From: Escherichia coli
Lineage (GTDB): Bacteria > Pseudomonadota > Gammaproteobacteria > Enterobacterales > Enterobacteriaceae
Length of the DNA: 64,000 nt
Strand: one strand, 5' to 3'
NCBI RefSeq assembly: GCF_016903815.1
Contig: NZ_CP069974.1
Positions within the stretch are counted from its first letter, which is position 1. Every line of letters starts with the position of its first letter. The notes below the pieces were generated by a model. That model was not told the origin of the DNA and made no database searches. It saw only the letters and a list, made by a program, of their open reading frames with translations. Below are positions 45,725 through 64,000 of this stretch, in pieces. The position numbers were made by a program, and so were the translations under genes.

Positions 45725-46779
<1,055 letters not shown>

Positions 46780-47045: not shown

Positions 47046-47510
47046 AGGGAAGTTTTTTCAGGCATCGTGTGTAAGCAGAATATATAAGTGCTGTTCCCTG
47101 GTGCTTCCTCGCTCACTCGAGGGCTTCGCCCTGTCGCTCGACTGCGGCGAGCACTACTGGCTGTAAAAGGACAGACCACATCATGGTGCTGTGTTCATTA
47201 GGTTGTTCTGTCCATTGCTGACATAATCCGCTCCACTTCAACGTAACACCGCACGAAGATTTCTATTGTTCCTGAAGGCATATTCAAATCGTTTTCGTTA
47301 CCGCTTGCAGGCATCATGACAGAACACTACTTCCTATAAACGCTACACAGGCTCCTGAGATTAATAATGCGGATCTCTACGATAATGGGAGATTTTCCCG
47401 ACTGTTTCGTTCGCTTCTCAGTGGATAACAGCCAGCTTCTCTGTTTAACAGACAAAAACAGCATATCCACTCAGTTCCACATTTCCATATAAAGGCCAAG
47501 GCATTTATTC

Positions 47511-48317: not shown

Positions 48318-48843
<526 letters not shown>

Positions 48844-49234
48844 AGCACACCTCTTTTTGACATACTTCGGGTATACATATCAGTATATATTCTTATGCCG
48901 CAAAAATCAGCGCGCAAATACGCATACTGCTATCTGGCTTTTAGTAAGCCTTATGTATTTTACCTTTCGTTATGTTAACCAATAAAAATTAAAATCTGAC
49001 TTATAAAAACAAAGCGTAATTACCGCATTCCCGTTTCGTATGGATCCGACTTTATTTGAATAAACGACTTTCCGGAAGTGTACAACGCTGAGAAAATCAT
49101 CATATCGCTGTTTTCCGCCCCTGCACGGCGCATCACAGGTCAGGGAAATAACACAACATATAGTGTCATCAGCAGCTGAATCCGGCACCACATGTTGTGC
49201 TTACAGGAAGTGGCGTTGTGTGGGGGGGAGAGGA

Positions 49235-49355
49235 AGATCCGTAACTGCCGGAAACCGGATCTCAGAAGAGAAAAAGAAGAGTTGTTGCAAGATAAGCACA
49301 AAAAATGGTGGTTTGTTGAGATATGGTAATTATTGCTCAGTGGGCAAAATTCAGA
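49235..49355 (+). repeat. island repeat R copy 1 (GATCCG-N13-CGGATC hairpin, purine-rich tract, mini-ORF)
   Basis: AGATCCGtaactgccggaaacCGGATCT then CAGAAGAGAAAAAGAAGAG...ATGGTGGTTTGTTGA...ATTATTGCT...GCAAAATT; homologous to the copies at 51190 and 57888. Confidence 0.6.
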
Positions 49356-49476
49356 ACAGAGTTAGCCTGAAATTGCAAAAAACAGGCCAGAAAAACTTTT
49401 TTCAGCTCATTTTCATCAACCGGCCTTAAAGGCTGCTTCGGATTTCCTAAATACAGTTTTACATAAGGAACATCGT

Positions 49477-49674
49477 ATGACTGTATTTCTCATGGCCGTT
49501 TTCTATGGCCTCTTAAAAACTGGCTCTCTCATTGCCCTACTTGTTGATGCCTATAAAGGCTGGACCTTGTTCTGGAAGAACTATGATCGACTCCCCCATA
49601 TCTACCGTTCGCAATGGCGATATCAGCGACGCTTCATTCTCAAAAGAATCTGGAAACGCATCAGAACCGGCTAA
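49477..49674 (+). CDS. small hydrophobic peptide (65 aa) with basic C-terminus
   Basis: MTVFLMAVFYGLLKTGSLIALLVDAYKGW... then RSQWRYQRRFILKRIWKRIRTG; downstream of repeat R1; coding status unverified. Confidence 0.3.
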   Translation: MTVFLMAVFYGLLKTGSLIALLVDAYKGWTLFWKNYDRLPHIYRSQWRYQRRFILKRIWKRIRTG

Positions 49675-49955
49675 GCCGGTTCTTCCAGCAGCATCCCCAA
49701 CCCGGCCAGCCAGCACAGACAGCACCAGGTGGTGAACACCATTCTGGTCTCGCCGGATTTCCACTTACGGATGGTGCGCTCGTCCACATCTAGCCGGTTG
49801 GCCAGCTGGATATCTGTGAGCGGGATCAGCGCCCGGACCACGCTGACTTCACTGGCTGAAGGTGCCATCCAGCTCTCGCCCGAGCACAGTGTTTCAGGGT
49901 TAAATTTCTCTAGTTCTATCAGCCCCTGAACCTGACGGGCATTTTCTGCCTTCAT
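49671..49955 (-). CDS. small HTH-containing protein with hydrophobic C-terminal tail
   Basis: LTDIQLANRLDVDERTIRKWKSGE HTH-like segment; C-terminal VFTTWCCLCWLAGLGMLL; 20 bp downstream of the DUF3800-like gene. Confidence 0.45.
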   Translation of the reverse strand: MKAENARQVQGLIELEKFNPETLCSGESWMAPSASEVSVVRALIPLTDIQLANRLDVDERTIRKWKSGETRMVFTTWCCLCWLAGLGMLLEEPA

Positions 49956-49974
49956 ATGCGGTTAACCTTTCTGA

Positions 49975-51108
49975 TCAGGATTGCGACACACTTTGTACAC
50001 GATGGGCAAGACGGCGCGTTTCTTCCACGGCCCTGAGTTCATTTGCTTTTTCTATCATTTCTGCGGTTGGTTCAGAAAGTTTTTCAAAAAACTCCTTAAA
50101 CCTCTTTGCAACTGACTGCAGAGAAACACTGTCAGTTCTCGCTGTTTTAAGATTGGTGTAGACGAGGCGGGAAAGGGGTTTGGTCAGTTCCTTCCGTTCC
50201 ATGTATCGTTTGAAGATCCAGAGATAAATATCAACCAGTTCCAGCCCGGCACTCATCGTTCCCGACTGGAAGACAAGCGGTTTTGCTGGCATGTTCTTCA
50301 TATCCATGACAGGCAAACCCGGCCCCAGTGCCCACGGCTGTTCGCGGATCTGGTAGTAAAACTCGTTCAACTCCCGCTGGGTGGTGTTGAACTGTGACTG
50401 CTGGTCAACAATGATATCTGCTTTCCGGTTCGGTGCCCCCAGACGAGAGCAGATCCCGTGCAAAACGGACTGAAAACCAATCATATTGGGCATGATCTGC
50501 AACTTTTCCTTATTGGTTTTGCAGTTGTACCCCAGCTCATCAAAGTTGACCATCGCCCAAGATAGGGCATCGGTAATGAGTTCAACTGAACGGGCATCAC
50601 CCAGAGAGTGAACGCGCTGAAGCAGCACTCCACAAACCTCACTGAATAATGAGCAAGAACGTTCATCATGAGCCTCAAGACGGGCACGCCACGCTTTTTC
50701 AGCCAGCTCATCATCAAACAGATTAGACAGATTCAGCAGCAGGGGATAGCGCAGAGGGGTCCAGTAGGCACTCCAGGGCACAACCGGATTCAGTCCCTGA
50801 TCAAACACCTGGTCGAAGAACGAAATAATGGCGTGATCGCGCTTAACCACCTGCCAGATATCAAACCGTATCCGGTGATTTTTCTGCAGGACCAGCAGCG
50901 TATCCACAACTTCTGAAAGGCGGTGCACGCCCAGTTCCGCAGCGTGCAGGCGCTCCACGCCCAGAGTTTTGCGTAATGCGGCAAGATCCGCTTCAGCAAC
51001 CTTATCTAGGTCAGCCTCTGAGGACAGTACTCCGTAGGAGAGGATTGGCTGGGTTTTGTCAAAAAGGTTTCGGCCAGTCTGGCCTGTTTCATCCACATAA
51101 AAGTGCAT
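49975..51108 (-). CDS. DUF3800-like protein (377 aa)
   Basis: N-terminus MHFYVDETGQTG resembles the y-DESG signature I associate with DUF3800; family assignment by recall. Confidence 0.45.
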   Translation of the reverse strand: MHFYVDETGQTGRNLFDKTQPILSYGVLSSEADLDKVAEADLAALRKTLGVERLHAAELGVHRLSEVVDTLLVLQKNHRIRFDIWQVVKRDHAIISFFDQVFDQGLNPVVPWSAYWTPLRYPLLLNLSNLFDDELAEKAWRARLEAHDERSCSLFSEVCGVLLQRVHSLGDARSVELITDALSWAMVNFDELGYNCKTNKEKLQIMPNMIGFQSVLHGICSRLGAPNRKADIIVDQQSQFNTTQRELNEFYYQIREQPWALGPGLPVMDMKNMPAKPLVFQSGTMSAGLELVDIYLWIFKRYMERKELTKPLSRLVYTNLKTARTDSVSLQSVAKRFKEFFEKLSEPTAEMIEKANELRAVEETRRLAHRVQSVSQS

Positions 51109-51189
51109 TCAGATATCCTTTTCAAGGCAGGAGGAAAAGAAACGGCATAATTCAAATCAATGTAAAACCTTCCTGTTGCCGGCTGCAAG

Positions 51190-51310
51190 TGATCCTCTTA
51201 AATGAGTTTTCGGATCTAAGGAAGAGAGAAGAGGGATTATTGTATGAATGGCACAAAAAGCGACGGATTGTTGCGGTGAATAGATTATTGCTTAGGAAGC
51301 AAAATTTATA
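51190..51310 (+). repeat. island repeat R copy 2
   Basis: GATCCtcttaaatgagttttcGGATC hairpin, AAGGAAGAGAGAAGAGGG tract, mini-ORF ATGAATGGCACAAAAAGCGACGGATTGTTGCGGTGA, ATTATTGCTTAGGAAGCAAAATTT. Confidence 0.6.
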
Positions 51311-51329
51311 GTAATTGATAACTCTAATG

Positions 51330-51360
51330 CAATTAAACAGCGACCCCATCAGGGGTCACC
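51330..51360 (-). terminator. putative terminator hairpin downstream of the 1039-aa gene
   Basis: GACCCC-ATCA-GGGGTC stem-loop at 51342-51357, followed on the minus strand by a T-rich stretch. Confidence 0.4.
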
Positions 51361-51370
51361 GTAATTTTGA

Positions 51371-54300
51371 TCAGCGATGTTCAAACCGCGCCACTGGAGT
51401 ATCAGTGATTTCCATCTCTATTTCCCAGAGCGTTTTCATCACACCTTCAAGTGGATCGTCGCTGCTGCGGTAGAAGGTATTGAAAAGGGTTCCATCCGGA
51501 TACCTGAACAGCCTGAGTTCACCAAAGGATTCAGCACTGACCATAAGCGAAAACTCCTGTTCGGAATTGAGGACAAGGTAAATAAGACAGTTATTGATCC
51601 TGAAGGGCAGAGAGCGGCTACCCCTGGCCGATACATCAACATGTATGCTAAACGCGTCATGCCTTTCCGGCTGATAGACCAGTTCCCTCAGTTCCTCGCT
51701 GAAGCGGGAACCATAGATCACCAGAATGTAGTTATTCTGATCAGCGGACCGTTGCGCGACTTCCATTAACAGCGTTTCGAGGTTATTGACCTCAATCGTT
51801 AATTTAGCCTGTGACTGCCACAGTACATAATGCAGTCTGCGGAGAATATTTCTGTTCACTTCTGATACCGAAGGGAAATCTCCGTAGTCAGTCTGATTAA
51901 GCTCTCTGGCAACATACTCTTTGGAAACACCAACAGGAATATATATCGCCAGCCAGTTGCGATCACATTCTGAATTTTGAGTAAACGTGAAGTATTTAAG
52001 CAGAACATCTTCAGACAATGCCCCAGGAAGTTCATTTGTAAGACGAGCATCAGTGTTTCTCAGTCGAGCCTGGTCTACTTCAGCAGCAACGATATCTGCC
52101 GTTTTACTACGACTGAATACATCTATGTATTTATCCAGAACATCATTAAAGAACACCACATTCGTTGCATAATCCGCTTCTGAAATGATATAACCTTCAT
52201 AGGGAACTGAAGGGTCTCGTTTCAGTCGTTTAAGAATAGAAATTATTCTGTCTTTACTGGAATAGGAAAACACCCCTCCAGCCAGGGCTTCATTAACACG
52301 CTGTGTAACCTGCTCCGCAGGCCTTGCGAGCTTTATAGCCAGCAAGGCAAACGCCCCGTAGAGACTCCCTAAATCTTCATATTCCCCTGTATACATACGC
52401 CCGGGAATGTAAGGCCTTTCATTATATGAGTTCATAACCTCAATGGTTTCTGATAACCCGCTGTACCAGCTTGTATTCGTATGCAGATTGCAGTGCTCAA
52501 TTCTCAGTATCATGTCAATGATATCGACAGAACGTCTGAATGCAGGCGTCAGCGTGTCATGTGTATCTCTATCTTCATATAATTCAGACATAATGAGATG
52601 ATTCACAAGATCGGCTAAGTCTATATTTTTTTGCGATTCAAAATGAGCAATAAGATACCCTGCCATTAACAACCGCAAATCGGATAAGGCATTTGCAAAC
52701 ATAATGGACAAAGCGGCATCTTTTTTATACTTGCTGCCCCTGAGTAACATATTCCACTGCGGTTCTGTCTCCTTCAGGGACAGATAATCCGGAGTCAGGA
52801 AGAAACTGTGCCAGCGGTACTCTTCCTCCCAGTAACGTGTAAACCGGCTCTGATTAAACCAGAGGCAGAGAACGTCGTGAGCATATCGCACGGAAGAGGC
52901 ATTATCGGCAACCACTGACGGAATAAGAAGCCTGGCGGTATTATGCAGATGATACATCAGGCGGCCAGTAGAATCTTCACTCCCGGGTTTGCCAGTGATC
53001 GTGGTCATACTCCAGCCTTCCCACAGTCCGATATACCCGCGGATAAGGGCCTGGTGAGTCAGCTCCTGGCTGGCCGAGAGGGGGCCCCCCAGTCCCGCTT
53101 TCCACTCGTTTAACACATGCCACACCCTGAAAAGCGAGAGTAAAAACTGTCTGAAATCGGTAAAACACGTGCTCTGTGTTTTTCTGTACACACGCAATGG
53201 AATGAGCATCGATTCACGGAAATATTCGCCTGAATATTCCGTTGATTTTACGGATTCACGAAAAAACTTTCTCAATTCATAATGGAATGAATCGCTGAAA
53301 GTATGGCTAAAACCTGATTCTTTTACTTCATCCAGATAATTTTTATCGACCTCGTAATTGTAACTTCTTTTGATAGAGGTATAGGTATCTGTTAATCGTT
53401 CAATCCCTGTTCTGAAGACGCTAATATTTTTATCGTTAAGCGCATCGTAAGCCTCACCAAAGAAATCAAAAGTAATATCATCCAGATCCCTTTTGTTCTC
53501 AGGGCGCCCTGTTACAATACAACGACGCAATAACCACCGCCACAATCCTGAAACAGGCTTGACATTTCTCGATGACAATAAAGTCAGTTCACCAGAACGA
53601 ACACCAAAGGAGGGCAGAATGATAATTTCCGCATCCTGCCCATCTACCGCCTCTAGCCTTCTCAGTAGGAATAAAAAAGGCCTTATATAAATATCAGTAA
53701 CAACATCACCTTTACTGATATTAGATTTAACATGAAGCATATCGTCTTTCTCAGAAATTGAGTAAGGCAGTATTTTAATATTACCGAGGTAATTTTGACC
53801 TACATGACCCCCCGGGTAACGCAGCCACGCCTGAATATATGCTTTTTGAATGTAGTCATCCACTATCTGAGATAAAAAAAACTTATTCATTAGTCGATCG
53901 CGTTTGCTCTCATCCAGGACATTCAGACTGGAGACGAAGAACCAGATAGACAGAATAATATTGAAAAGCATCCACACAAAAGCTGTTACGGCAAAAGAAG
54001 TATTAAGATATCCGTCACCTATAGATAACGTCATACCGCCCAGCACGACAAATGCAGCCAGTGAAAGACCACTCAGGCCCGCAAACATATATCCGGAATG
54101 AAGTTGATACGCGGACTGAATATGGATCCTTGCTGATTTCTTTTGAAATAAAACACTTATAAGCCCCACAACCAGCGGAAATACAATACCGATTATAGTC
54201 AACTGGCTACCCAGTAAATTAGACATCCAATCTGAAAGCTTGGTAATGCCCTTAAAATGCTGCACAGCGAAAGGTAGCAATACAGGGCGAAAATATTCGA

Positions 54301-54490
54301 CCACGCCAACAGCCCCGAAGGCTGCGGACCATAGAACCAGCATAGCCCGGACGTAATGGGTGGAGCAGGAAACAAGTATTCTCTCCACCGGGTTCCAGCG
54401 AAGTTTTTTGTAATCCCGGTTCGACTTCAGGCTCCGTCGGAGTTCAGCTCTCACCTGCCATGAGACACTTTTCAGAAGTTTTCCAAACAT
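51371..54490 (-). CDS. large membrane-anchored protein of unknown function (1039 aa, four N-terminal TM segments)
   Basis: Uninterrupted 3.1-kb ORF in an AT-rich island; four hydrophobic segments within the first ~200 aa, ~840-aa soluble C-terminal region with no recognisable catalytic motif. Confidence 0.7.
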   Translation of the reverse strand: MFGKLLKSVSWQVRAELRRSLKSNRDYKKLRWNPVERILVSCSTHYVRAMLVLWSAAFGAVGVVEYFRPVLLPFAVQHFKGITKLSDWMSNLLGSQLTIIGIVFPLVVGLISVLFQKKSARIHIQSAYQLHSGYMFAGLSGLSLAAFVVLGGMTLSIGDGYLNTSFAVTAFVWMLFNIILSIWFFVSSLNVLDESKRDRLMNKFFLSQIVDDYIQKAYIQAWLRYPGGHVGQNYLGNIKILPYSISEKDDMLHVKSNISKGDVVTDIYIRPFLFLLRRLEAVDGQDAEIIILPSFGVRSGELTLLSSRNVKPVSGLWRWLLRRCIVTGRPENKRDLDDITFDFFGEAYDALNDKNISVFRTGIERLTDTYTSIKRSYNYEVDKNYLDEVKESGFSHTFSDSFHYELRKFFRESVKSTEYSGEYFRESMLIPLRVYRKTQSTCFTDFRQFLLSLFRVWHVLNEWKAGLGGPLSASQELTHQALIRGYIGLWEGWSMTTITGKPGSEDSTGRLMYHLHNTARLLIPSVVADNASSVRYAHDVLCLWFNQSRFTRYWEEEYRWHSFFLTPDYLSLKETEPQWNMLLRGSKYKKDAALSIMFANALSDLRLLMAGYLIAHFESQKNIDLADLVNHLIMSELYEDRDTHDTLTPAFRRSVDIIDMILRIEHCNLHTNTSWYSGLSETIEVMNSYNERPYIPGRMYTGEYEDLGSLYGAFALLAIKLARPAEQVTQRVNEALAGGVFSYSSKDRIISILKRLKRDPSVPYEGYIISEADYATNVVFFNDVLDKYIDVFSRSKTADIVAAEVDQARLRNTDARLTNELPGALSEDVLLKYFTFTQNSECDRNWLAIYIPVGVSKEYVARELNQTDYGDFPSVSEVNRNILRRLHYVLWQSQAKLTIEVNNLETLLMEVAQRSADQNNYILVIYGSRFSEELRELVYQPERHDAFSIHVDVSARGSRSLPFRINNCLIYLVLNSEQEFSLMVSAESFGELRLFRYPDGTLFNTFYRSSDDPLEGVMKTLWEIEMEITDTPVARFEHR

Positions 54491-54796
54491 AGATATCCTG
54501 CGTATTACATAAGAAATTTTATGAATAATAAGCGGTAGGAACCTTTTTTTCTCTGGAAAATGTCACCCGATACCCTTCATACAGGCTTTGTCATCCTAAA
54601 ATCCGGTTTAACCTTTTTTCGGATCTCCGATAAAAAAGAAAGAAATAGAGATATGCATAAACATATGCCTGGCATCTACATATGCTACCGCTATACATAT
54701 GCCACACATCTGCCTATACTAAACATATGCACACACCCGGTGCTTTGAATATTCCGGATATGTTTCACATATCCATATGCTCGGGAGAGAAAGAAC

Positions 54797-55027
54797 ATGA
54801 GAACCGTATCGATATTTAAAAATGGCAACAACCGCGCCATCCGTCTGCCTCGTGATCTGGATTTTGAGGGGGTGAGCGAGCTCGAGATCGTCCGGGAAGG
54901 GGACAGCATCATCCTGCGCCCCGTCCGGCCAACCTGGGGATCATTCCTAGAGTACGAAAAAGCCGATCCAGATTTTATGGCGGAGCGCGAGGATGTTGTC
55001 AGCGACGAAGGGCGATTTAACCTGTGA
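54797..55027 (+). CDS. vapB: VapB/MvpA antitoxin (AbrB/SpoVT fold)
   Basis: 76 aa MRTVSIFKNGNNRAIRLPRDLDFEGVSELEIVREGDSIILRPV... matches VapB/MvpA-type antitoxins. Confidence 0.85.
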   Translation: MRTVSIFKNGNNRAIRLPRDLDFEGVSELEIVREGDSIILRPVRPTWGSFLEYEKADPDFMAEREDVVSDEGRFNL

Positions 55028-55440
55028 ACAAGACTTATATGCTTGATACCTGTATCTGCTCGTTCATCATGCGTGAACAGCCAGAAGCCGTCCTGAAGCG
55101 TCTGGAGCAGGCGGTGCTACGCGGCCACCGTATAGTGGTCTCGGCCATCACCTACTCTGAAATGCGCTTCGGGGCTACCGGCCCAAAGGCCTCACCACGT
55201 CACGTCCAACTGGTCGATGAATTCTGCGCCCGCCTCGATGCCATCCTGCCCTGGGATCGCGCCGCAGTAGACGCCACCACGAAGATTAAAGTGGCACTGC
55301 GGCTGGCCGGGACGCCGATCGGCCCGAACGACACGGCGATTGCCGGGCACGCCATCGCCGCCGGGGCGATACTGGTAACGAATAATACAAGAGAATTTGA
55401 GCGAGTGCCTGACCTGGTGCTGGAAGACTGGGTGAAGTAA
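55024..55440 (+). CDS. vapC: VapC/MvpT PIN-domain toxin (start GTG 55024 or ATG 55039)
   Basis: MLDTCICSFIMRE...VVSAITYSEMRFG...LVTNNTREFERVPDLVLEDW with PIN acidic residues; overlaps vapB stop. Confidence 0.85.
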   Translation: MNKTYMLDTCICSFIMREQPEAVLKRLEQAVLRGHRIVVSAITYSEMRFGATGPKASPRHVQLVDEFCARLDAILPWDRAAVDATTKIKVALRLAGTPIGPNDTAIAGHAIAAGAILVTNNTREFERVPDLVLEDWVK

Positions 55441-55601
55441 GACACTCTTTTCAAAGTCAGGAGATAAGGGCACCAAGAAACAGCCCGTATACGGGCTGTT
55501 TTAACAGATATCTACAGTAAGCGGTCCTAAACTGTAGGGTATCTTCGAAGATCAGACTATCAGGGAGCTAAAGCCTATCTTCCGGCGGCAAAAACAGTGG
55601 C

Positions 55602-57740
55602 TCAAGCGATACGGGCAACCGAGCTCTGGTTTGCTGCCGGTGGCAGGGCGATGAGCTTGTCACATTCCATAATCACGTACTCCGGGATGAGATCGAATCT
55701 GGACGGATCTAGTTGACAGATGAACTCATTTTCAATGTGGTACGTTTCGTTAACGAATTTTCGTATTACCGGATGGTCCTGATCCAGTTCCAGTAAACGG
55801 AATACCTGCAGTTTTTCATAGCCGTTACGACAGCGACGGTACAGGTTTTTTATTTCATCTGGGCTGCTGACGAGAGCCTGAAGTCGCGGGTAATCAAAAC
55901 TGTCCACATACTCCCGGATATCCCGCAAGGCCTGCTGAATTTTCTCAGGAGCCATTTTGGGATAGCCCGAGCCCGCAGCGGCAGGCTCGCGATAATCCAG
56001 CGGGGCGACGCGTCGATGGAATAGATTGGATAGAAGCTGATAAGCATCACCACGTTCGTCAACGATTTCAAAGTAGCGACGAAGATAGATGAGCTTAATG
56101 ATCTCCTCACAGTCTGCTGACGCGGTGATGGATTTGCAGATCTGCATGAATGTCATGATATCGCCGTCGTTAACAGGTAATTCTTCTATGACTCCAGCAG
56201 ACAGGCGCAGGCAGGAGGCGGTCACCTGATTACTGAACAACCTTCTGACTGACTTCAGCGTGTCAATCACAGGCTCCACGTCATGCGTCAGCATAAGTAC
56301 AGTCCGGTTCTTCAGGCATTCACCACTTGCACGTCTGAACAGCATTTCAAGAATGGCAAACTTCTTGTTTTTATCAAAAGAAGATATGGGATCATCAAGG
56401 ATAATCAGTCCCGGGTTTTTTGACAGGCATTCATACATGAATAACACAATCGCAAAGGCGTTCCGTTCTCCATAGCTGAGATGCTGGCTACCGCCGCTGA
56501 CGTACCCGTCAAAATCTATGTGTCGTAGCCTGAGTTTTCTCTGCTCTCCCTCGCCGGCTATATCCACCCTGTATTTATAGCCTGCATAAGTGAGGAAATT
56601 ATTGATGTTTGTTTTGTGCTGTGCGATCAGCCGGATCATGCTGTCCCGGTGCCGGTTAATTTTTCCCTGCAGCGGTCCGGCAAGGTTTATCAGGTCCATA
56701 AGGGCCGCGTTCAGTCTGTCGGTGATCCCCTGCATGAGTTCGGATTGCAGATCAGGGAAGAACTGCAGGTCAATCAACCTGGCAGTGAGCACCTCCCGAA
56801 CGTTCTGCTGTTCCTGCAGGCTGAAAACATTCAGGCCTCTCAGCGCAGTGAGTTTCTCTGTCAGCGTATCGGTCTGGCGTTTCAACGCCACTAGGTACTC
56901 GATATGTTCGGCTTCCGGACCGTTCTGAAGCATAGTAATGGCCAGAAGGCGTTCTCTGGCGCTCTCCGTCAGGTAATTACCGAGGTTTTCCACCAGTCTG
57001 ATGATAGCGGTCAGGTTTTTAATGGTGGATTTATCGTATTCCTCTCTGACTTGGCGAATTTGTGCTTCCTTTCCCGTGATATCACCGGTACAGAACGGAC
57101 AGCAGCCATCCGAAAGGGGCGAAAACTCGAGTCCCTTTGTCTGCCAGTCAATCCATTCCACGCGGCGTTCACTGCGGATGTAGGGTTGATAGTTCTCAAG
57201 ACCAGCCGGAATGTGGTGTATTTTATTTCCGCCTGACAGACCTCTCATGCCGGTTGAAGAACGTGAAATCCCGGAACTGGTTGATTTGAAAGCATTACTG
57301 AGTTCCTGTAGATGGTCTATCAGAGAGTTCAGCTCAGTGTGATCCGTGAAAACAGCCCGGATCTTTTGCGTCATTTCTTCTATTTCACGCTCTCTTTCCG
57401 CATGGGCTTGATTGCGGATAAGAATATTAAAGCTGTCACTGATGAGCTCGTCCGGTTGGAACGTAAACTGACTGACGTACTCCTCGTTGAAGCACATCAC
57501 GTCCCCAATCCCGTCAGCACCGATGACAATGGGCCCGGTGCTATCGGGGTTTTCTCCGCGCAGCCGGAAGGGCATCAGTGCCTGTAGTCCCTGAATGTCG
57601 TCCCGCGCCGCACAGCTTATGGCCCGTGACAGCGTACTTTTTCCAGTACCATTTGGCGCAAACTTAATGTTCAGTTTATCGGCAGTGAGGGTGATATGTG
57701 CTCGTACGATGTTATTGCAGTGGCGTATTTCAATGTCCAT
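55602..57740 (-). CDS. RloC/Rad50-like ABC ATPase with CxxC hook insert (candidate anticodon nuclease)
   Basis: Walker A APNGTGKST at the N-terminus, long coiled-coil-like insert with CCPFCTGD (CxxC), signature-like LSYGER, Walker B LIILDDP, C-terminal LRRYFEI...H region reminiscent of PrrC/RloC. Confidence 0.45.
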   Translation of the reverse strand: MDIEIRHCNNIVRAHITLTADKLNIKFAPNGTGKSTLSRAISCAARDDIQGLQALMPFRLRGENPDSTGPIVIGADGIGDVMCFNEEYVSQFTFQPDELISDSFNILIRNQAHAEREREIEEMTQKIRAVFTDHTELNSLIDHLQELSNAFKSTSSGISRSSTGMRGLSGGNKIHHIPAGLENYQPYIRSERRVEWIDWQTKGLEFSPLSDGCCPFCTGDITGKEAQIRQVREEYDKSTIKNLTAIIRLVENLGNYLTESARERLLAITMLQNGPEAEHIEYLVALKRQTDTLTEKLTALRGLNVFSLQEQQNVREVLTARLIDLQFFPDLQSELMQGITDRLNAALMDLINLAGPLQGKINRHRDSMIRLIAQHKTNINNFLTYAGYKYRVDIAGEGEQRKLRLRHIDFDGYVSGGSQHLSYGERNAFAIVLFMYECLSKNPGLIILDDPISSFDKNKKFAILEMLFRRASGECLKNRTVLMLTHDVEPVIDTLKSVRRLFSNQVTASCLRLSAGVIEELPVNDGDIMTFMQICKSITASADCEEIIKLIYLRRYFEIVDERGDAYQLLSNLFHRRVAPLDYREPAAAGSGYPKMAPEKIQQALRDIREYVDSFDYPRLQALVSSPDEIKNLYRRCRNGYEKLQVFRLLELDQDHPVIRKFVNETYHIENEFICQLDPSRFDLIPEYVIMECDKLIALPPAANQSSVARIA

Positions 57741-57887
57741 TTATCTGTCCTTTGCCAGTTATTCCGGGGGGATTCATATCCTGCCGCAAAATGTGCCCGC
57801 ATGCTGTGATGCAGATACATAATACATTTCGTTTATACCATTGCTTACACCTCTCCGAGATGTTCATATCAGAAACAAAGATTAGGT

Positions 57888-58020
57888 CGATCCGACTTTT
57901 ACTTTTTTCGGATCTCTGGAGAGGGGAAGAAGGATTTGTGCTGATGATGCAATACTAATGATATATTTTGAACTTAATTGCATTATTGCTTATCTGGCAT
58001 TAATAACTGAAATACTTTGC
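57888..58020 (+). repeat. island repeat R copy 3
   Basis: GATCCGActtttacttttttCGGATC hairpin, CTGGAGAGGGGAAGAAGG tract, mini-ORF ATGATGCAATACTAA, ATTATTGCTTATCTGGCA...GCATAATTA. Confidence 0.6.
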
Positions 58021-58204
58021 ATAATTATCAATGAAAGAACGAGGCTCATATTTCCCATGTAAATTATATGCCCTTGCAGAGAGCGAGACGGTAGTGAACT
58101 TGCGGCACTAATAATAAACTGTACCGACTCTTCCCGGGCACTGGAATGTTCAGATGTACGACAGAGCCCCGCGCCTTTTGCAATAAATAATTAAAGGACT
58201 GAAC

Positions 58205-59200
58205 ATGGCGACCACAGTAATAGCTGCCTTTAACGAATTTATGAAAGATACCGTGAATCTCAAAAAGGCAGATACCGATGACGCGCGTGCAAGTCGCGAC
58301 TGGCTTATCGGTAAGATGAATGATTTTGAGAAGGACGATAAATTTCCGGTGAGTTTTCCAGCGATCCATATTGCCTTTGGCTCCTTTGCCAGAAGAACCA
58401 AAATCCGTCCGCTTGATGATATCGATCTGATGTTTGGCTTAACCGGGCAAGGTGCCACCTATACCATCCTGAGTGACCGGATAACTGTAACCTCCTCCGG
58501 AGAGGGGTCACGTCTGCACAGTTACCGCCATTCCGGAGCTGACACCGTCTGCTCCGTCAGAATTCTGAATGCCTTTAAAAACCGCCTGCAGGACATTGCC
58601 CAGTACGCCCAGGCTGATATCAGGCGTAACCAGGAAGCTGTCACGCTGAAACTGGTCAGCAAGGACTGGAATTTTGACATCGTCCCCTGCTTTATTACCA
58701 GCGAAGATGCCTTTGGACGGACTTACTACCTGATCCCCGATGGCAACGGCCACTGGAAGTTTACCGACCCCCGTAAAGACAGGGACAGAGTCACTACTAT
58801 CAATGTGCAGAATAACGGCAATGTGCTCAATGTCATCAGAGCAGTCAAATACTGGCAGCGGCGACCGACGATGCCATCCATGAGTTCCTACCTGCTGGAA
58901 ACGCTGATTCTGGACTATTACGCTGGCAGGACATCCTGCTCATCGTTTGTTGACATGGAGCTGGAAGCGCTTTTCCGCCACCTTGGTCAATCCGTGCGGT
59001 ACTCTGTCAACGATCCCAAAGGCATACAGGGTGATATCAACTCACTTTCAGCCGAGGCACGTAAGGCGATATCGGACAGATGTTATCTCGATGCGCAAAA
59101 GGTATCGGAGGCGAGATGGTTTGAAAATAATAAAGAGTATGAAAAATCCATCAATAAATGGCGCGATGTGTTCGGGCCATTCTTTCCTGTTTACGGGTGA
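58205..59200 (+). CDS. CD-NTase/SMODS-like nucleotidyltransferase (CBASS-type cyclase candidate)
   Basis: GS-x11-DID nucleotidyltransferase motif FGSFARRTKIRPLDDIDLMF and downstream third Asp KDWNFDIVPCF; 331 aa. Confidence 0.6.
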   Translation: MATTVIAAFNEFMKDTVNLKKADTDDARASRDWLIGKMNDFEKDDKFPVSFPAIHIAFGSFARRTKIRPLDDIDLMFGLTGQGATYTILSDRITVTSSGEGSRLHSYRHSGADTVCSVRILNAFKNRLQDIAQYAQADIRRNQEAVTLKLVSKDWNFDIVPCFITSEDAFGRTYYLIPDGNGHWKFTDPRKDRDRVTTINVQNNGNVLNVIRAVKYWQRRPTMPSMSSYLLETLILDYYAGRTSCSSFVDMELEALFRHLGQSVRYSVNDPKGIQGDINSLSAEARKAISDRCYLDAQKVSEARWFENNKEYEKSINKWRDVFGPFFPVYG

Positions 59201-59203
59201 ATC

Positions 59204-60136
59204 ATGAATGCCATTTACACAAACCAGTCGACCAGAGAAAACATGGATTTACTGTATGCGCAGGCCCGTGTCTACGACAGGGTAAAAAACTGGAACAGAC
59301 TGAATTTTCTCTTCAGCATCATCGTACCGCTCCTGCTTTCTTTCGTTACCGTATACAACCGGAGCCGGGAATTTGTCGATTCAGAGTTGTTGTCTTCGCT
59401 GTTGGGGTTATATGGACTCCTGGTGCTTACCTTTAACATTGTTATCAGTGGACACATCTCGGCTCTGCGCAGGAAGGCAGCCTCAATCCAGGAAATGTAC
59501 GACTGCCGGGTACTTGGCATCCGGCGTAATGAACTGAAGGTGGAGGAGATCCCACGGGATGACATCATCCGGGAAGCTGCATATTTTAGAGACAGCCCGG
59601 AAAAAGCACGAAAGCGATTTGGCGAAGAGGGGTGGTACGTCAGTAAGGTGTATGACGCGCCGCAGGCCGTAATGGCGCTCCTTTGCCACGGAAAAAATCT
59701 CGGCTGGGACAAATCGCTCAGGGAGGTTCTGCACGTATTTTATCTTTCCGCTTTTATTGTCTCGCCTGTCGCGATGCTTGTTTACGGCATCGTCATGAAA
59801 TCCGGGCTGAATGAGATCCTCTTCTATGTGGTGTTCACACTGCCGGTCATCCGCTATTTCTTGCTTCAGTTTCTGGATAATCGCAGCAGTATGAAAAGAA
59901 GCGAGAAGCTGAAAAAGTACGTTGAGAAGGAATTATCCGGCATAAGGGTGTCCGGAAGGGCAGAAGAAGAGCAACTGGCTTATACGCTCCGGAATATCCA
60001 AGATGAGATGTTTACCTACCGGGCCTCATGTCCGCCCGTACCCAACGGTATTCAGCTGATAATGAAGCCCAAAAATGAACGAATTTATGTTGATTACTTT
60101 GAAACAAATCTGAAGGAGCTGCACCTTCAGAAGTAA
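59204..60136 (+). CDS. 4-TM effector-like membrane protein (2TM-loop-2TM) coupled to the nucleotidyltransferase
   Basis: Starts 4 bp after the NTase stop; hydrophobic segments around residues 30-50, 60-85, 198-222 and 228-248. Confidence 0.55.
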   Translation: MNAIYTNQSTRENMDLLYAQARVYDRVKNWNRLNFLFSIIVPLLLSFVTVYNRSREFVDSELLSSLLGLYGLLVLTFNIVISGHISALRRKAASIQEMYDCRVLGIRRNELKVEEIPRDDIIREAAYFRDSPEKARKRFGEEGWYVSKVYDAPQAVMALLCHGKNLGWDKSLREVLHVFYLSAFIVSPVAMLVYGIVMKSGLNEILFYVVFTLPVIRYFLLQFLDNRSSMKRSEKLKKYVEKELSGIRVSGRAEEEQLAYTLRNIQDEMFTYRASCPPVPNGIQLIMKPKNERIYVDYFETNLKELHLQK

Positions 60137-60272
60137 TCCCTCCTTAGCTCCGGTGTAGGATTTACGTATGCCGGAGCACATCCGATAAACAATTCTTGGT
60201 TGCCTGAGTGTCAGCGTAAACCCATAGTCACCTTCGCCTCAGACGGTTAGTAACACAGGTAATGACTCCAAC

Positions 60273-60776
60273 TTACTGATAGTGTTTTATGTTCAGATAA
60301 TGCCCGATGACTTTGTCATGCAGCTCCACCGATTTTGAGAACGACAGCGACTTCCGTCCCAGCCGTGCCAGGTGCTGCCTCAGATTCAGGTTATGCCGCT
60401 CAATTCGCTGAGTGTAACGCTTGCTGATTACGTGCAGCTTTCCTTTCAGGCGGGATTCATACAGCGGCCAGCCATCCGTCATCCATATCACCACGTCAAA
60501 GGGTGACAGCAGGCTCATAAGACGCCCCAGCGTCGCCATAGTGCGTTCACCGAATACGTGCGCAACAACCGTCTTCCGGAGCCTGTCATACGCGTAAAAC
60601 AGCCAGCGCTGGCGCGATTTAGCCCCGACGTATCCCCACTGTTCGTCCATTTCCGCGCAGACGATGACGTCACTGCCCGGCTGTATGCGCGAGGTTACCG
60701 ACTGCAGCCTGAGTTTTTTAAGTGACGTAAAATCGTGTTGAGGCCAACGCCCATAATGCGGGCTGTTGCCCGGCAT
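60273..60776 (-). CDS. insB: IS1 InsB
   Basis: 167 aa matching IS1 InsB. Confidence 0.9.
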
Positions 60777-60970
60777 CCAACGCCATTCATGGCCATATCA
60801 ATGATTTTCTGGTGCGTACCGGGTTGAGAAGCGGTGTAAGTGAACTGCAGTTGCCATGTTTTACGGCAGTGAGAGCAGAGATAGCGCTGATGTCCGGCAG
60901 TGCTTTTGCCGTTACGCACCACCCCGTCAGTAGCTGAACAGGAGGGACAGCTGATAGAAACAGAAGCCAC
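60695..60970 (-). CDS. insA: IS1 InsA
   Basis: 91 aa [43 protein letters not shown]... matches IS1 InsA. Confidence 0.9.
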
Positions 60971-61183
60971 AGGAGCACCTCAAAAACACCATCATACACT
61001 AAATCAGTAAGTTGGCAGCATCACCGGCATTCAAAATCATTATGGCCGCGATCTATTTCTGGCTGTTCTCTATCACTTTTGGCGGCATCGTCGCTCATGG
61101 GTAAGGGGAGTATATTAGCCATTTGGAACCCCACGGTCTCTTGCGGGTTTAATTAAGAACCCGCAAGAAAAACACGAATTGGG

Positions 61184-64000
61184 CTATATTTTTCCGCCTA
61201 CGCCTTTAAACTTCTCAATAAACGAGACGATTTTCTGGAAAACTGCCTGTTTTTTCGTTTTATATTGCGGGTTTAACGGACTAAGTTTTGGTAATGTCTC
61301 GTTTAATTCTGTGCCATTTTCGGTGGCGTATTCGCGTTTTAAAGACGTGCGAATATAGCGTTTCGCCGCCTCTTCATTGAGATTTTCTTCTTTAATCAAC
61401 GCTTCTGCTTCACGTAGCTGTTCGTGTTGAGCAAAGGTAAAGAACGCGTCAATGATGCTGGCTTTGTCTGGTAAATCATCCAGGTTCGTTTGCTGAATAA
61501 AATCGACCACCAGGCCCTCTTTCGCCCGGTTCCCCAGGCTTGAACGAATTAAGCGTTTGACCTCTTCGATCATTTCGCCCTTGCCTTTATTTTGTCTGTT
61601 ATGTTCGAAAATCAGTCCAAGGATATAATCCAGGTTTATTTCCTGAGACTTCAGCAAATCGACCTCAAAAACCACGTCATCCCAGTCAGTGGTTGATTTC
61701 TCTTTTTTCTCAGCTTCTTTCTCACGGCGCTGCCAGTCGCGAATATCGTTATAGGCAGAACGATAATCCTGAATCTTGCGATCAGCAGGGAGACGAATTG
61801 TTTGCAATTCAGCGAGCTTTTCATCATCCACATAATGTTCTGCTTTGAATTTTTCTACTGCAACAGGATCGCTAAGATCGATTTGTTGCAGGGCTTTCAG
61901 CGTGGCAAATTCATCATAGTTTTGCAGGATGTTCTCGGTACGCAGGTATTCACCAAACAGTTTTACGAAGTCTTTCTTCTCTTTTTCACTTTCAATACTG
62001 GCAGGGTCAGGGAACCGTTGTTCCAGTTCTGCAACTACTGCCATAAAGCCGCGCTTAGCTTCACCAGTAGCAGCATCAGTAAAGCCTTCCATATACTCTG
62101 CATAACTCTTTTCTAACACTACATTTTTGGTGTTTTTGTCACCAAACAGCGTTATGGCATCAATAGTTGAGCGTTCCAGATCCCGGAAAGTGACGATATT
62201 ACCGAAGGTTTTAGTGGCGTCATAAATGCGGTTGGTGCGGGAAAATGCCTGCATCAGGCCGTGAAAACGTAAGTTTTTATCGACGAATAGCGTGTTCAAT
62301 GTTGGAGCATCGAAGCCGGTTAAGAACATCCCCACGACAATTAGCAGATCGATATCCTGATTTTTAACCCGCTGGGCTAAATCACGATAGTAGTTCTGAA
62401 AACCGTTACTGTCGGTGCTAAAGTTAGTTTTAAAATGGCTGTTATATTCACGAATTGCAGCGTCCAGAAACTCTTTAGCACTGCTGTCCATTGCGCTGGT
62501 ATCAAAAGTTTCATCGGAAATCTCACCAATGGCATTTTGTTCTTCATTGGCGGCAAAGGAGAAGATTGTCGCAATACGCAGCGGTTTATAGGTAGCCGAT
62601 TTATTAGCGGCTTCTTCTTGTAACCGTTTAAACGTCGCATAATAGGCTTTCGCGGCATCCACGCTGCTCACTGCCAACATAGCATTAAAACCTTTTGAGC
62701 CAGGGAAGGTACGGTGAGTTTTCTGGCGGAAATTATTCAGAATATATTGCGTAATTTCCTGTATACGCATGGGATGAAGAAACGCCTGCTGATTTTCAGC
62801 CGCACTCAGTTTTTTCTCGTCGGTTTCTGTCTCTAAAGACTTAAACTGTGGCCGCACATCGTTGTAGTCCACCTTGAATTTAAGCACTTTTTCATCTCGA
62901 ATCGCATCGGTAATAACATATGAATGCAATTCACGACCAAATACGCTGGCGGTTGTTTCTGAGCCTAAGGCGTTTTCCGGGAAAATAGGGGTACCGGTAA
63001 AACCAAACTGATAATAGCGTTTGAATTTCTTCTTCAGGTTTTTCTGTGCTTCTCCAAACTGGCTGCGGTGGCATTCATCAAATATAAACACCACTTGCTG
63101 ATTGTATACAGGCAGGTCGCTTTCTGCTTTCATCAGGTTATTGAGTTTCTGAATAGTGGTGACGATAATTTTGTTATCATCCTTATCCAGATTTCGTTTA
63201 AGACCTGCGGTATTTTCCGATCCATTGACACTGTCTGGCGAAAAACGCTGATATTCCTTCATGGTCTGGTAATCGAGGTCTTTCCTGTCGACCACAAAGA
63301 AGACTTTATCAATAAAGTCCAGTTCTGTTGCCAGACGCGCGGCTTTAAAGCTGGTCAGGGTTTTACCAGAACCGGTAGTGTGCCAGATAAAGCCACCACT
63401 TTCGGGGGTAGACCAGTTTTTCGCTTTATAGGAGCTGTTGATTTTCCATAAGATACGCTCAGTGGCGGCAATCTGGTACGGTCGCATCACCAGTAGCGTC
63501 TGGCTACTGTCAAAAACGCTGTAGTTCACCAGAACATTCAGCAGAGTATGTTTCTGGAAAAAGGTAGCGGTAAAGTCTTTGAGGTCTTTAATCAGCGTGT
63601 TGTCTGATTTTGCCCAATTCATGGTGAAGTCAAAACTGTTTTTATCGCGCTTTGTCGTGTTGGCAAAATAATGGGTATCGGTGCCGTTAGAAATGACAAA
63701 CAGTTGCAGATACTTAAACAGGGAATTTTCGCTGTTAAAACTCTCTTTACTGTAACGATGTATCTGGTTGAAAGCCTCACGAATCGCCACCCCGCGTTTT
63801 TTTAGTTCGATTTGCACCAGCGGTAAACCATTAACCAGGATCGTGACGTCATAACGGTTAGCATGAGAACCCGTCTGTTCAAACTGCTGGATAATCTGCA
63901 CCTTATTGCGCATGAGATTCTTTTTATCTATCAAATAGATGTTCTCAAGACGCTCGTCATCAAAAATAAAGTCGCAAATATAGTCGATATGGATTTTACG
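61184..64000 (-). CDS. hsdR: type I restriction enzyme R subunit HsdR, C-terminal ~916 aa (5' end outside window)
   Basis: Helicase motifs [22 protein letters not shown] (DEAH-like), QAFSRTNR; ORF continues past the window end. Confidence 0.85.

What the first reader, a model, noticed from the sequence alone, without database searches (positions are those of the whole stretch)
51371..54490. 1039-aa four-TM protein with no recognisable domain inside an AT-rich accessory island
A 3.1-kb uninterrupted ORF encodes a protein with four N-terminal hydrophobic segments and an ~840-aa soluble region. I cannot find a P-loop, nuclease, protease or nucleotidyltransferase motif in it. It has its own terminator hairpin, is noticeably AT-richer than the plasmid backbone, and is bracketed by repeat R copies and by known defence/addiction modules (DUF3800-like, vapBC, RloC-like ATPase, CBASS-like pair). 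That context makes it a candidate novel membrane-anchored immunity or abortive-infection effector rather than a housekeeping gene.
Basis: partly seen in the sequence, partly recalled or inferred. Interest (0 to 1): 0.8.

Follow-up and report, generated by a model that had tools for sequence, protein, structure and literature searches.

The report
Membrane protein with a capsid-fold domain
A 1039-residue "hypothetical" gene on a common E. coli IncF plasmid encodes a four-helix membrane protein whose tail is predicted to fold like a phage capsid protein. It and its relatives often sit among anti-phage genes, so it is a strong but untested candidate for a new kind of phage defence.

Summary
The ORF is real: 51371-54490, minus strand, 1039 aa. 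It has four N-terminal hydrophobic helices, a strong terminator hairpin and 44% GC against 51% for the window. No sequence library recognises it (Pfam, NCBIfam, PADLOC, PHROGs, PDB sequences).

About 280 clusters of relatives exist, nearly all 1040-1100 aa and all unnamed. The TM2-loop-TM3 segment is the most conserved part. A hairpin in the capsid-fold domain and a small beta domain vary most.

The gene always stands alone. It recurs beside defence genes and in mobile elements:
- this island, which replaces pifCA of plasmid F;
- between hsdS and hsdR of type I R-M operons (twice);
- next to McrBC (twice), Lamassu, a PifA homologue and a SIR2 candidate;
- in lambdoid prophages, once directly after the cI-like repressor and once after repressor plus integrase.

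Best reading: a single-protein, membrane-acting anti-phage system. The capsid-like domain would engage phage head assembly and the 4-TM module would act as effector. A defence role is about 0.65 likely; the specific mechanism about 0.3. Nothing has been tested experimentally.

The parts
51371..54490 (-). Coding sequence, 1039 aa plus stop (WP_023909028.1, annotated 'hypothetical protein')
   Evidence: 100% identical in more than 200 plasmids; present in 227 of 5426 complete E. coli genomes
54496..54499 (-). Shine-Dalgarno AGGA, 5 nt upstream of the ATG
   Evidence: read from the sequence
54356..54490 (-). aa 1-45: basic amphipathic N-terminal helices, predicted cytoplasmic
   Evidence: 12 K/R in the first 48 aa; helices in the model; W32, E36 and S43 nearly invariant
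53915..54355 (-). aa 46-192: four-helix transmembrane module, the most conserved part and the proposed effector
   Evidence: hydropathy; model helices; invariant Q96 T98 P105 G109 Q116 K118 Q129 S132 G133 S140 W173 N177; only 2-4% of positions vary in aa 91-140 among 31 homologues; 40% identity in distant relatives against 14-16% for the variable domains
53801..53914 (-). aa 193-230: long helix continuing from TM4 into the cytoplasm
   Evidence: DSSP H194-224
53486..53800 (-). aa 231-335: small beta-rich domain, highly variable, fold not identified
   Evidence: DSSP; most variable together with aa 821-910
52208..53485 (-). aa 336-761: large all-alpha domain with invariant W457 W463 E491 D539 W544 D604 R606 R663 G697 R698; no catalytic motif recognised
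51374..52207 (-). aa 762-1039: HK97 major-capsid-protein/encapsulin fold (structure-level similarity only)
51337..51362 (-). Terminator-like hairpin 9 nt after the stop codon
   Evidence: 11-bp stem, dG -22.1 kcal/mol, z -5.2, 0 of 200 shuffles as stable
54601..54627 (.). Repeat R copy about 110-135 nt upstream of the ATG (GATCCG-N14-CGGATC beside a pyrimidine-rich tract on the coding strand); possible shared regulatory site
   Evidence: weak hairpin only; no Rfam match
51192..51238 (.). Repeat R copy downstream of the gene, about 85-130 nt upstream of the DUF3800 ATG. A third copy at 57890-57936 lies upstream of the PDC-S06 ATPase
49282..64000 (.). Accessory defence island holding the gene: DUF3800, this gene, vapBC, PDC-S06 ATPase, type I CBASS pair, IS1, type I R-M. 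Its left edge is the point where homology to plasmid F ends
   Evidence: F 45904-52418 matches window 49281-42765 at 99% identity; F carries pifC-pifA beyond that point. Neighbour identities

Best explanation
The gene encodes a stand-alone, inner-membrane anti-phage protein of the superinfection-exclusion or abortive-infection type. It belongs to a family that has not been described.

Anatomy. A basic N-terminus is followed by four transmembrane helices. Everything after TM4 is predicted to be cytoplasmic: a long helix continuing from TM4, a small variable beta domain, a roughly 430-residue all-alpha domain, and a C-terminal 278-residue domain with the HK97 capsid-protein fold.

Proposed mechanism (inferred, not shown). 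The capsid-fold domain acts as a mimic of a phage head subunit. Alternatively it acts as bait for proteins that normally bind head subunits, such as scaffold, portal, protease or decoration proteins. When an infecting tailed phage starts head assembly, the domain is engaged or co-assembles and its oligomeric state changes. The change is passed through the alpha domain and the TM4-continuing helix to the conserved TM2-loop-TM3 core. That core opens or disrupts the membrane, which stops phage production.

Shown here: the architecture, the fold assignment, the conservation pattern, the lack of a partner gene, and residence in defence islands and mobile elements. Inferred: the topology, the defence function, the trigger and the membrane effect.
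For: (1) Fold. The HK97 fold of aa 762-1039 was found twice from independent predictions (and 75/89). AlphaFold-DB models of relatives at 14-25% identity superpose over the full length with TM 0.7-0.9.

(2) Conservation split. TM2-loop-TM3 is nearly invariant and carries invariant polar residues. This is more than an anchor needs. The hairpin and loop region aa 821-910 of the capsid-fold domain and the beta domain aa 231-280 are the most variable windows. This is the pattern expected of a conserved effector joined to a diversifying sensor.

(3) Context of homologues. They were chosen for sequence diversity and contig length before their context was seen. The gene sits between hsdS and hsdR of type I R-M operons twice (L017; L029). 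It lies next to McrBC twice (L007; L014). It is followed by HEC-05 and a complete Lamassu (L016). It lies near a PifA homologue (L015), an OLD/Gabija-like ATPase beside a P4-like element (L005) and a SIR2 PDC-S25 candidate (L002). In two lambdoid prophages it lies near a CI-like repressor: directly after it in L021, a copy with a disrupted N-terminus, and after the repressor plus an integrase in L020, an intact copy.

(4) This plasmid. The island with CBASS, PDC-S06 and type I R-M replaces pifC-pifA of F at the same junction beside ccdA. PifA excludes T7, and the permeability lesions depend on T7 genes 1.2 and 10 (PMC12632615, text and its reference 45); that gene 10 encodes the capsid protein is own knowledge.

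(5) Other points. The gene is AT-richer than the backbone and patchily distributed. No partner gene is conserved in any context. Of 234 places in E. coli, 229 are on plasmids.
Against: No experiment or publication bears on this protein. PADLOC 2.0, including its island-derived PDC candidates, does not contain it.

Five of 14 non-prophage contexts show no recognised defence gene: Kosakonia L009, Photobacterium L010, the IncFII plasmid L012, Pseudoalteromonas L008 and the Pantoea plasmid L018. No background rate was computed.

The capsid similarity is fold-level only, at 3-15% identity. No residue-level alignment was available, so the presence of E-loop, spine-helix and capsomer-contact elements was not verified. 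The HK97 fold could serve only for self-oligomerisation. The strong conservation of the TM module would also fit a transport or housekeeping role. The trigger and the membrane effect are pure inference.
Confidence: 0.45

Rival explanations
1. It is a defence protein, but the capsid-fold domain is only an oligomerisation scaffold. It would form pentamers or hexamers that gather 20-24 TM helices into a pore. Sensing would be done by the variable beta domain or the alpha domain, or by loss of a host function. In the operon-embedded versions, sensing could be guarding of the type I R-M complex, as with PrrC.
For: HK97-fold proteins naturally form pentamers and hexamers (established knowledge). The beta domain aa 231-280 is as variable as the capsid-fold hairpin. 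The gene is embedded between hsdS and hsdR in two loci, which recalls PrrC guarded by EcoprrI (own knowledge).
Against: The most variable stretch lies inside the capsid-fold domain (aa 821-910), which is unexpected for a purely structural scaffold. Most family members are not linked to an R-M operon.
Confidence: 0.2
2. It is a non-lethal poison of capsid assembly. The membrane-tethered capsid mimic co-assembles with the phage major capsid protein and derails procapsid formation. Satellite capsid-redirecting proteins work in a similar way. The TM segment would be mainly an anchor.
Against: The TM2-loop-TM3 segment is the best conserved part and carries invariant polar residues. This argues for an active membrane function rather than an anchor. 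The roughly 570 cytoplasmic residues between TM4 and the capsid-fold domain would have no role.
Confidence: 0.12
3. It is not an immunity protein. It would be an accessory membrane protein of mobile elements with another role. Examples are a transporter or channel, a stress or envelope sensor, or a membrane-anchored encapsulin-like scaffold. It would hitch-hike in variable regions that also collect defence genes.
For: Five of 14 contexts lack defence genes. The TM module is strongly conserved. Encapsulins with a TM extension exist (Family 3, Mesorhizobium; PMC8346489). Two distant structural relatives are labelled DUF2254, an uncharacterised membrane-protein family.
Against: No transporter family matches at any threshold. 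No cargo or biosynthetic partner gene is conserved. Embedding inside R-M operons and residence in lambdoid prophages near the cI-like repressor are hard to explain without an exclusion role. Two plasmid copies (three records) are interrupted by IS elements, and other copies are split or truncated, so the gene is dispensable.
Confidence: 0.18
4. It targets incoming plasmids or conjugation rather than phages, acting as an inter-plasmid competition or exclusion factor.
For: Two lineages (100% and 40% identity) sit beside the replication regions of F-type plasmids. One homologue lies inside an ICE.
Against: A capsid fold has no obvious target in conjugation. Homologues also occur in prophages and in chromosomal islands beside classical anti-phage systems.
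Confidence: 0.05

Closest known systems
PifA of plasmid F (T7 exclusion)
   Same: It occupies the same slot. In F, pifC-pifA lie directly beside ccdA-ccdB-resD-repE-sopAB. Here the island with this gene begins exactly where homology to F stops, 144 nt upstream of pifC. PifA is also a single plasmid protein. The membrane permeability lesions it causes depend on T7 genes 1.2 and 10 (PMC12632615, reference 45); gene 10 encodes the major capsid protein (own knowledge). A PifA homologue lies two genes from a family member in Pectobacterium.
   Different: PifA is a KAP P-loop NTPase (PMC12632615; annotated 'P-loop NTPase fold protein'). This protein has no Walker A motif and no PADLOC PifA match. 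It has four N-terminal TM helices and a capsid-fold domain.
RexA/RexB of phage lambda
   Same: The logic is a cytoplasmic sensor coupled to a four-TM inner-membrane effector (RexB; own knowledge). One homologue (L021, N-terminally disrupted copy) lies directly downstream of a CI-like repressor, the position rexAB holds in lambda. Another (L020, intact) follows a CI-like repressor and an integrase.
   Different: RexAB is two small proteins and this is one 1039-aa chain. There is no sequence similarity, and RexA has no known capsid fold.
HK97-fold major capsid proteins and encapsulins
   Different: There is no sequence similarity and no homologue in 50,697 phage genomes. No portal, terminase, protease or cargo gene is adjacent in any context. 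The domain is fused behind about 760 residues that include four TM helices. The only TM-bearing encapsulins reported have a C-terminal extension and sit in biosynthetic clusters (PMC8346489).
PrrC/RloC-type abortive-infection genes embedded in type I R-M loci
   Same: Two distant family members lie between hsdS and hsdR with abutting reading frames (L017; L029). PrrC occupies the same position in the EcoprrI locus (own knowledge).
   Different: PrrC and RloC are ATPase-anticodon nucleases. This protein has no ATPase or nuclease motif, and most family members are not linked to R-M.
Capsid-sensing immune proteins (CapRel SJ46, Lit/Gol; mouse Fv1 as a eukaryotic analogue)
   Same: The concept is immunity triggered by, or directed at, the viral capsid protein. 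Fv1 is itself a domesticated gag (capsid) gene that restricts retroviruses (own knowledge).
   Different: The bacterial sensors do not themselves have a capsid fold. None has a TM effector in the same chain. Any relation here is functional analogy and is untested.
TM effectors of CBASS (S-4TM), Kiwa KwaA and retron/DRT 2TM proteins
   Same: N-terminal multi-helix membrane module in a defence-island protein. A genuine S-4TM CBASS effector lies 4.7 kb away.
   Different: There is no PADLOC or Pfam match to any of them. No nucleotide-signal-binding domain and no partner cyclase are present.

Membership tests
PifA / KAP P-loop NTPase exclusion proteins | KAP-type P-loop NTPase domain (Walker A/B) | tested here: not met
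   No [AG]xxxxGK[ST] or GxxGxGK motif. No Pfam KAP_NTPase match at E<=10. No PADLOC PifA match at E<=1, although that model detects a true PifA homologue at 5e-65.
Phage major capsid protein (HK97 lineage) | HK97 fold | tested here: met
Phage major capsid protein (HK97 lineage) | Encoded in a head-morphogenesis module (portal, terminase, protease/scaffold) of a phage or prophage | tested here: not met
   No such neighbours in the window or the loci examined. No tblastn hit in 50,697 phage genomes. In prophages it sits near the repressor and integrase or beside tail genes.
Phage major capsid protein (HK97 lineage) | Sequence membership in a capsid family (Pfam Phage_capsid and similar, or a PHROG head family) | tested here: not met
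   No match for the query. One of 36 homologues gives SU10_MCP at E 0.03, which is not significant.
Encapsulin | HK97-fold shell protein that self-assembles into a closed icosahedral compartment | not testable with these tools
   The fold is met. Assembly cannot be predicted here. About 760 N-terminal residues with 4 TM helices make a closed shell unlikely (inference).
Encapsulin | Conserved cargo protein or operon partner | tested here: not met
   No gene is conserved next to family members in any context examined.
CBASS S-4TM / SLATT-type membrane effectors | Match to the effector profile and pairing with a nucleotide cyclase | tested here: not met
   No PADLOC or Pfam hit. The neighbouring true S-4TM effector scores 1e-165. 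No cyclase is adjacent to homologues.
DUF2254 (PF10011) membrane proteins | Match to the Pfam profile | tested here: not met
   No hit at E<=10 for the query. None among 48 + 20 homologues scanned individually. Only two distant Foldseek targets carry the label, so a remote relation is not excluded.
Transporters (chromate / MFS, as some records label relatives) | Match to the transporter family profile; 10-12 TM helices | tested here: not met
   No Pfam or NCBIfam match. Only four TM helices. The labels are sporadic.
Anti-phage defence system (generic) | Recurrent location in defence islands and mobile-element hotspots | tested here: met
   9 of 14 non-prophage contexts have recognised defence genes within 10 kb, mostly adjacent. 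There are also three prophage contexts, and the gene's island replaces pifCA. The sample is small and has no computed background.
Anti-phage defence system (generic) | Protection against phage when expressed | not testable with these tools

The most novel reading that the evidence does not exclude
A bacterial immune receptor built from a domesticated viral capsid protein. The HK97-fold domain of a host or plasmid membrane protein would co-assemble with, or be recognised by, the head-assembly machinery of incoming tailed phages. That event would be coupled directly to a conserved four-helix membrane pore. This would be a prokaryotic counterpart of gag-derived restriction factors such as Fv1. 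It would also be the first HK97-fold protein outside capsids and encapsulins with a cellular function.
Probability: 0.3. Interest if true: 0.9.

Novelty: new variant of a known kind. Interest (0 to 1): 0.8.

Why it matters
- Prevalence. The gene sits on IncF (FIA/FIB/FII) plasmids. It occurs in about 4% of complete E. coli genomes at 99% identity or more, and on over 1000 contigs in public data. If it blocks phages it affects phage therapy and plasmid ecology.
- Fold. A capsid fold inside a cellular membrane protein has not been reported as far as my searches reach. It bears on two questions: how hosts exapt viral structural genes, and whether the HK97 fold exists outside capsids and encapsulins.
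- Testability. The architecture suggests a simple sensing principle, mimicry of a capsid subunit, that could act broadly against tailed phages.
- Hotspot. The slot beside ccdA in RepFIA replicons appears to be an exchangeable defence slot, holding pifCA in F and this island here.

Tried and rejected
- Sequence homology to any known family was sought in Pfam (query, 48 homologues, 20 distant homologues, 36 C-terminal domains), NCBIfam, PADLOC, PHROGs and PDB sequences, by single sequence and by profile. Nothing significant was found.
- The DUF2254 lead from two Foldseek labels has no Pfam support, and the family is uncharacterised anyway.
- A search with the N-terminal 340 aa, meant to find the TM module fused to other domains, returned only fragments of the same family.
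- SNIPE, the membrane-bound nuclease of bioRxiv 2025.11.03.685801, was considered because it is a membrane defence protein. It was rejected on two grounds: its abstract describes a membrane-bound nuclease that cleaves phage DNA during injection, and this protein has no nuclease motif.
- HEPN, HD and HNH-like patterns found by regex fall on non-conserved residues.
- DUF3800 or vapBC as functional partners was rejected, because neither is found next to any homologue.
- Repeat R as a structured RNA was rejected. The hairpins are weak (z -1.3 to +0.1), there is no Rfam match, and it is absent from the 11 loci held when that search was run.
- The P2-like prophage location was not claimed as the published P2 hotspot. 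That hotspot lies between gpA and gpQ (PMC9122126), whereas this copy lies beside tail genes.
- The literature was searched by accession, by plasmid and CBASS terms, and by HK97 plus defence terms. No description of this protein was found.
Full report
OBSERVATION

The open reading frame 51371-54490 on the minus strand encodes 1039 residues. An AGGA ribosome-binding site lies 5 nt before the ATG. An 11-bp GC-rich hairpin lies 9 nt after the stop codon, with dG -22.1 kcal/mol and z -5.2.

Kyte-Doolittle analysis finds four hydrophobic segments between residues 46 and 192. The N-terminal 48 residues carry 12 K/R, and the TM2-TM3 loop and the post-TM4 stretch are also basic. This predicts an N-in/C-in topology with the remaining ~840 residues in the cytoplasm (inference from the positive-inside rule).

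The gene has 44.3% GC against 51.1% for the window. The flanking 'repeat R' is real. The core TTTTCGGATCT occurs exactly three times, at 51207, 54616 and 57905. Each copy lies roughly 100-175 nt upstream of a minus-strand gene: DUF3800, this gene, and the PDC-S06 ATPase.

WHERE IT IS

The window is an E. coli IncF (FIA/FIB/FII) plasmid. The 4-kb region is 100% identical in many plasmids. The gene occurs in 227 of 5426 complete E. coli genomes, and 229 of 234 places are on plasmids. It is annotated everywhere as 'hypothetical protein', WP_023909028.1.

PADLOC confirms the neighbours. These are a PDC-S06 ATPase (3e-286), a CBASS cyclase (4e-152) and its 4TM effector (1e-165). vapBC, IS1 and a type I R-M are annotated.

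I compared the window with plasmid F. F 45904-52418 (ccdAB-resD-repE-sopAB) matches window 49281-42765 at 99% identity. Homology stops 144 nt upstream of pifC. The island that holds this gene therefore replaces the pifC-pifA phage-exclusion operon at the same junction.

SEQUENCE SEARCHES

No sequence library recognises the protein. Pfam-A, NCBIfam, PADLOC and PDB sequences gave nothing, and PHROGs gave only an insignificant hit. This holds for the single sequence and for profiles. No P-loop, nuclease, protease, PLD or cyclase motif is present.

THE FAMILY

A word-indexed search found 107 clusters. An exhaustive HMMER search found 280 clusters at 50% identity. Apart from fragments, nearly all are 1040-1100 aa and align over most or all of their length. 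They span Enterobacterales, Vibrio, Photobacterium and Pseudoalteromonas.

By structure the family extends further, to Acinetobacter, Marinobacter, Arcobacter and Burkholderiales. These relatives share 14-25% identity and superpose with full-length TM-scores of 0.7-0.9. All are unnamed apart from sporadic transporter-type mislabels.

STRUCTURE

AlphaFold2 with a 48-sequence alignment gave a confident model, with pLDDT 85.6 and pTM 0.71. Its parts are:
- N-terminal helices, then four TM helices;
- a long helix continuing from TM4 (aa 194-224);
- a beta-rich domain (about aa 231-335);
- a large all-alpha domain (aa 336-761);
- a C-terminal alpha/beta domain.

The similarity is structural only. 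Profile and HMM searches of this domain find no capsid family, and no phage genome encodes a homologue.

Residue-level superpositions were not available. I therefore cannot say which HK97 sub-elements (E-loop, spine helix) are present.

CONSERVATION

The TM module is the best conserved part. In distant relatives it keeps 40% identity, against 14% for the beta domain and 16% for the capsid-fold domain. Among 31 homologues at 51-90% identity, only 2-4% of positions differ in aa 91-140.

The module carries invariant polar residues in or next to the membrane: Q96, T98, Q116, K118, Q129, S132, S140 and N177. The most variable 30-residue windows are aa 821-910, a hairpin and loop of the capsid-fold domain, and aa 231-280 in the beta domain.

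CONTEXT OF RELATIVES

Homologues were picked for sequence diversity and contig length before their context was known. In none is there a conserved neighbour.

Recognised defence genes lie within 10 kb, mostly adjacent, in 9 of 14 non-prophage contexts:
- this island;
- Vibrio, an integrase-bounded island with a resolvase and the SIR2 candidate PDC-S25;
- Pantoea, an OLD/Gabija-like ATPase beside a P4-like primase module;
- Salmonella, an ICE with McrBC immediately upstream and a type I R-M;
- a soil contig with McrBC adjacent;
- Pectobacterium, with a PifA homologue (5e-65) and SIR2;
- a contig with HEC-05 plus a complete Lamassu LmuA/C/B directly downstream;
- two separate loci where the gene lies between hsdS and hsdR of a type I R-M operon. 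One of them also has BrxR and GmrSD genes.

Five contexts show nothing recognisable.

Eleven IMG/VR viral contigs carry homologues:
- In two lambdoid prophages the gene lies near a CI-like repressor. It follows the repressor directly in L021 and follows the repressor plus an integrase in L020. The L020 copy is intact; the L021 copy is disrupted at the N-terminus.
- Seven contigs carry a copy at 24-25% identity. The one examined (L024) lies beside the tail-sheath, tube and tape-measure genes of a P2-like prophage.

INTERPRETATION

Shown here:
- a stand-alone accessory gene of mobile elements;
- a 4-TM core under strong constraint;
- a rapidly diverging C-terminal domain with a viral capsid fold;
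- repeated residence among defence systems and in classical exclusion-gene positions, namely the pif slot of F, the region near cI in prophages, and inside type I R-M operons.

Inferred: the protein is an anti-phage system. The capsid-like domain would engage phage head-assembly components. The TM module would be the effector that compromises the membrane.

Precedents for the logic exist. PifA causes T7 permeability lesions that depend on gene 10, which encodes the capsid protein (PMC12632615 and its reference 45, plus own knowledge). Others are RexAB, capsid-triggered CapRel and Lit (own knowledge), and TM effectors thought to cause suicide (PMC9122126).

I put the defence role at about 0.65 and the capsid-engagement mechanism at about 0.3. 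The confidence of 0.45 for the composite statement is a compromise between the two.

The rival explanations are:
- the capsid fold as an oligomerisation scaffold, with another domain doing the sensing;
- non-lethal poisoning of capsid assembly;
- a non-immune membrane function;
- anti-plasmid activity.

COMPARISON AND MEMBERSHIP

The protein is not a member of any of these families:
- PifA/KAP NTPases: there is no P-loop, and the PADLOC PifA model is silent here although it detects a true homologue.
- Capsid proteins or encapsulins: the fold is met, but the genomic module, sequence family and cargo partner are not.
- CBASS/SLATT effectors, DUF2254 or transporters.

It may work like RexAB or PifA, as a sensor plus membrane lesion, and it shares a fold with capsid proteins. 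Encapsulins with TM helices have been described, but with a C-terminal extension in biosynthetic clusters (PMC8346489).

NOVELTY

Literature searches by accession, by plasmid and defence terms, and by HK97 plus defence terms found no description of this protein. RefSeq still calls it hypothetical.

As a functional type, a single-protein membrane-acting exclusion system in a defence island, it would be a new variant of a known kind. As a protein family and architecture it has no described relative. A capsid-fold sensor would be conceptually new.

LIMITS

- All structural statements rest on predicted models.
- The context sample is small and has no computed background rate.
- No promoter was identified. 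The scan of 51000-55000 found no minus-strand site in the 54491-54796 intergenic region.
- The function is untested.

Noticed in passing
window 51192-51238, 54601-54627, 57890-57936: Repeat R is an imperfect inverted repeat, GATCCG-N14-CGGATC, next to a pyrimidine-rich tract on the minus strand. It occurs exactly three times. Each copy lies roughly 100-175 nt upstream of a minus-strand gene of the island (DUF3800, the 1039-aa gene, the PDC-S06 ATPase). It may be a shared operator or promoter element, or a cassette boundary. It is not found near distant homologues, and there is no Rfam match.
   Followed up: partly
window 49281/49282; L019 (plasmid F) 45904: The RepFIA backbone (ccdAB-resD-repE-sopAB) is 99% identical to F up to a sharp breakpoint 144 nt upstream of pifC. 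F carries pifC-pifA there, and this plasmid carries the defence island. This looks like an exchangeable defence slot beside ccdA.
   Followed up: yes
window 54650-54795: The intergenic region shared with the divergent vapBC operon holds at least six copies of a GCATATG-type motif. These are presumably VapB operator sites.
   Followed up: no
window 55602-57740 (-), 58205-60136 (+), 60273-60970, 61184-63934 (-): The rest of the island holds four features. There is a 712-aa ATPase matching the PADLOC candidate PDC-S06 (3e-286, with weak LmuB and PrrC similarity). There is a two-gene type I CBASS (cyclase plus S-4TM effector). There is an IS1, and the hsdR of a type I R-M system.
   Followed up: partly
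window 49975-51108 (-): The DUF3800 protein (377 aa) directly downstream has its own repeat R and no PADLOC match. It is another uncharacterised cargo gene of the island, and it does not accompany homologues of the 1039-aa gene elsewhere.
   Followed up: partly
other plasmids: NZ_AP019191.1, NZ_CP095637.1, NZ_CP189528.1; AFDB entries of 905, 789, 648 and 545 aa: Some otherwise identical copies are interrupted by IS66/ISEc8 or IS2, or split into two or three ORFs. Truncated forms are common in databases. The gene is therefore dispensable and is sometimes inactivated.
   Followed up: partly
L015 6715-8835 (Pectobacterium): A PifA homologue (PADLOC 5e-65) sits two genes upstream of a family member, separated by a 200-aa integrase fragment. 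The same integrase fragment precedes the homologue in Pantoea (L005), where the upstream cargo is an OLD/Gabija-like ATPase instead. This looks like a small integrase-associated hotspot.
   Followed up: partly
L002 3386-8423 (Vibrio): Three genes of 775, 730 and 167 aa follow a tyrosine integrase that splits an AhpC-like gene. They have no Pfam or PADLOC match and may be another unknown cargo system in the same island.
   Followed up: no
L002 17891-20385; L004 5808-8302; L018 6840-7919: A PIN_12-domain protein of about 360 aa recurs near family members in Vibrio, where it is paired with a 455-aa protein, and on a Pantoea plasmid. It has no PADLOC match and is a possible uncharacterised defence or toxin module.
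   Followed up: no
L021 7941-8100: The prophage copy directly downstream of a CI-like repressor has stop codons within its first ~20 codons. This copy may be N-terminally truncated or a pseudogene. The related prophage copy in L020 is intact.
   Followed up: yes
window 13000-15000; 17000-20000; 29000-32000; 35000-37000: The composition profile shows a very AT-rich block (GC 0.34-0.37 at 13-15 kb). It also shows three stretches with strongly positive AT skew (0.18-0.30). These were not examined.
   Followed up: no
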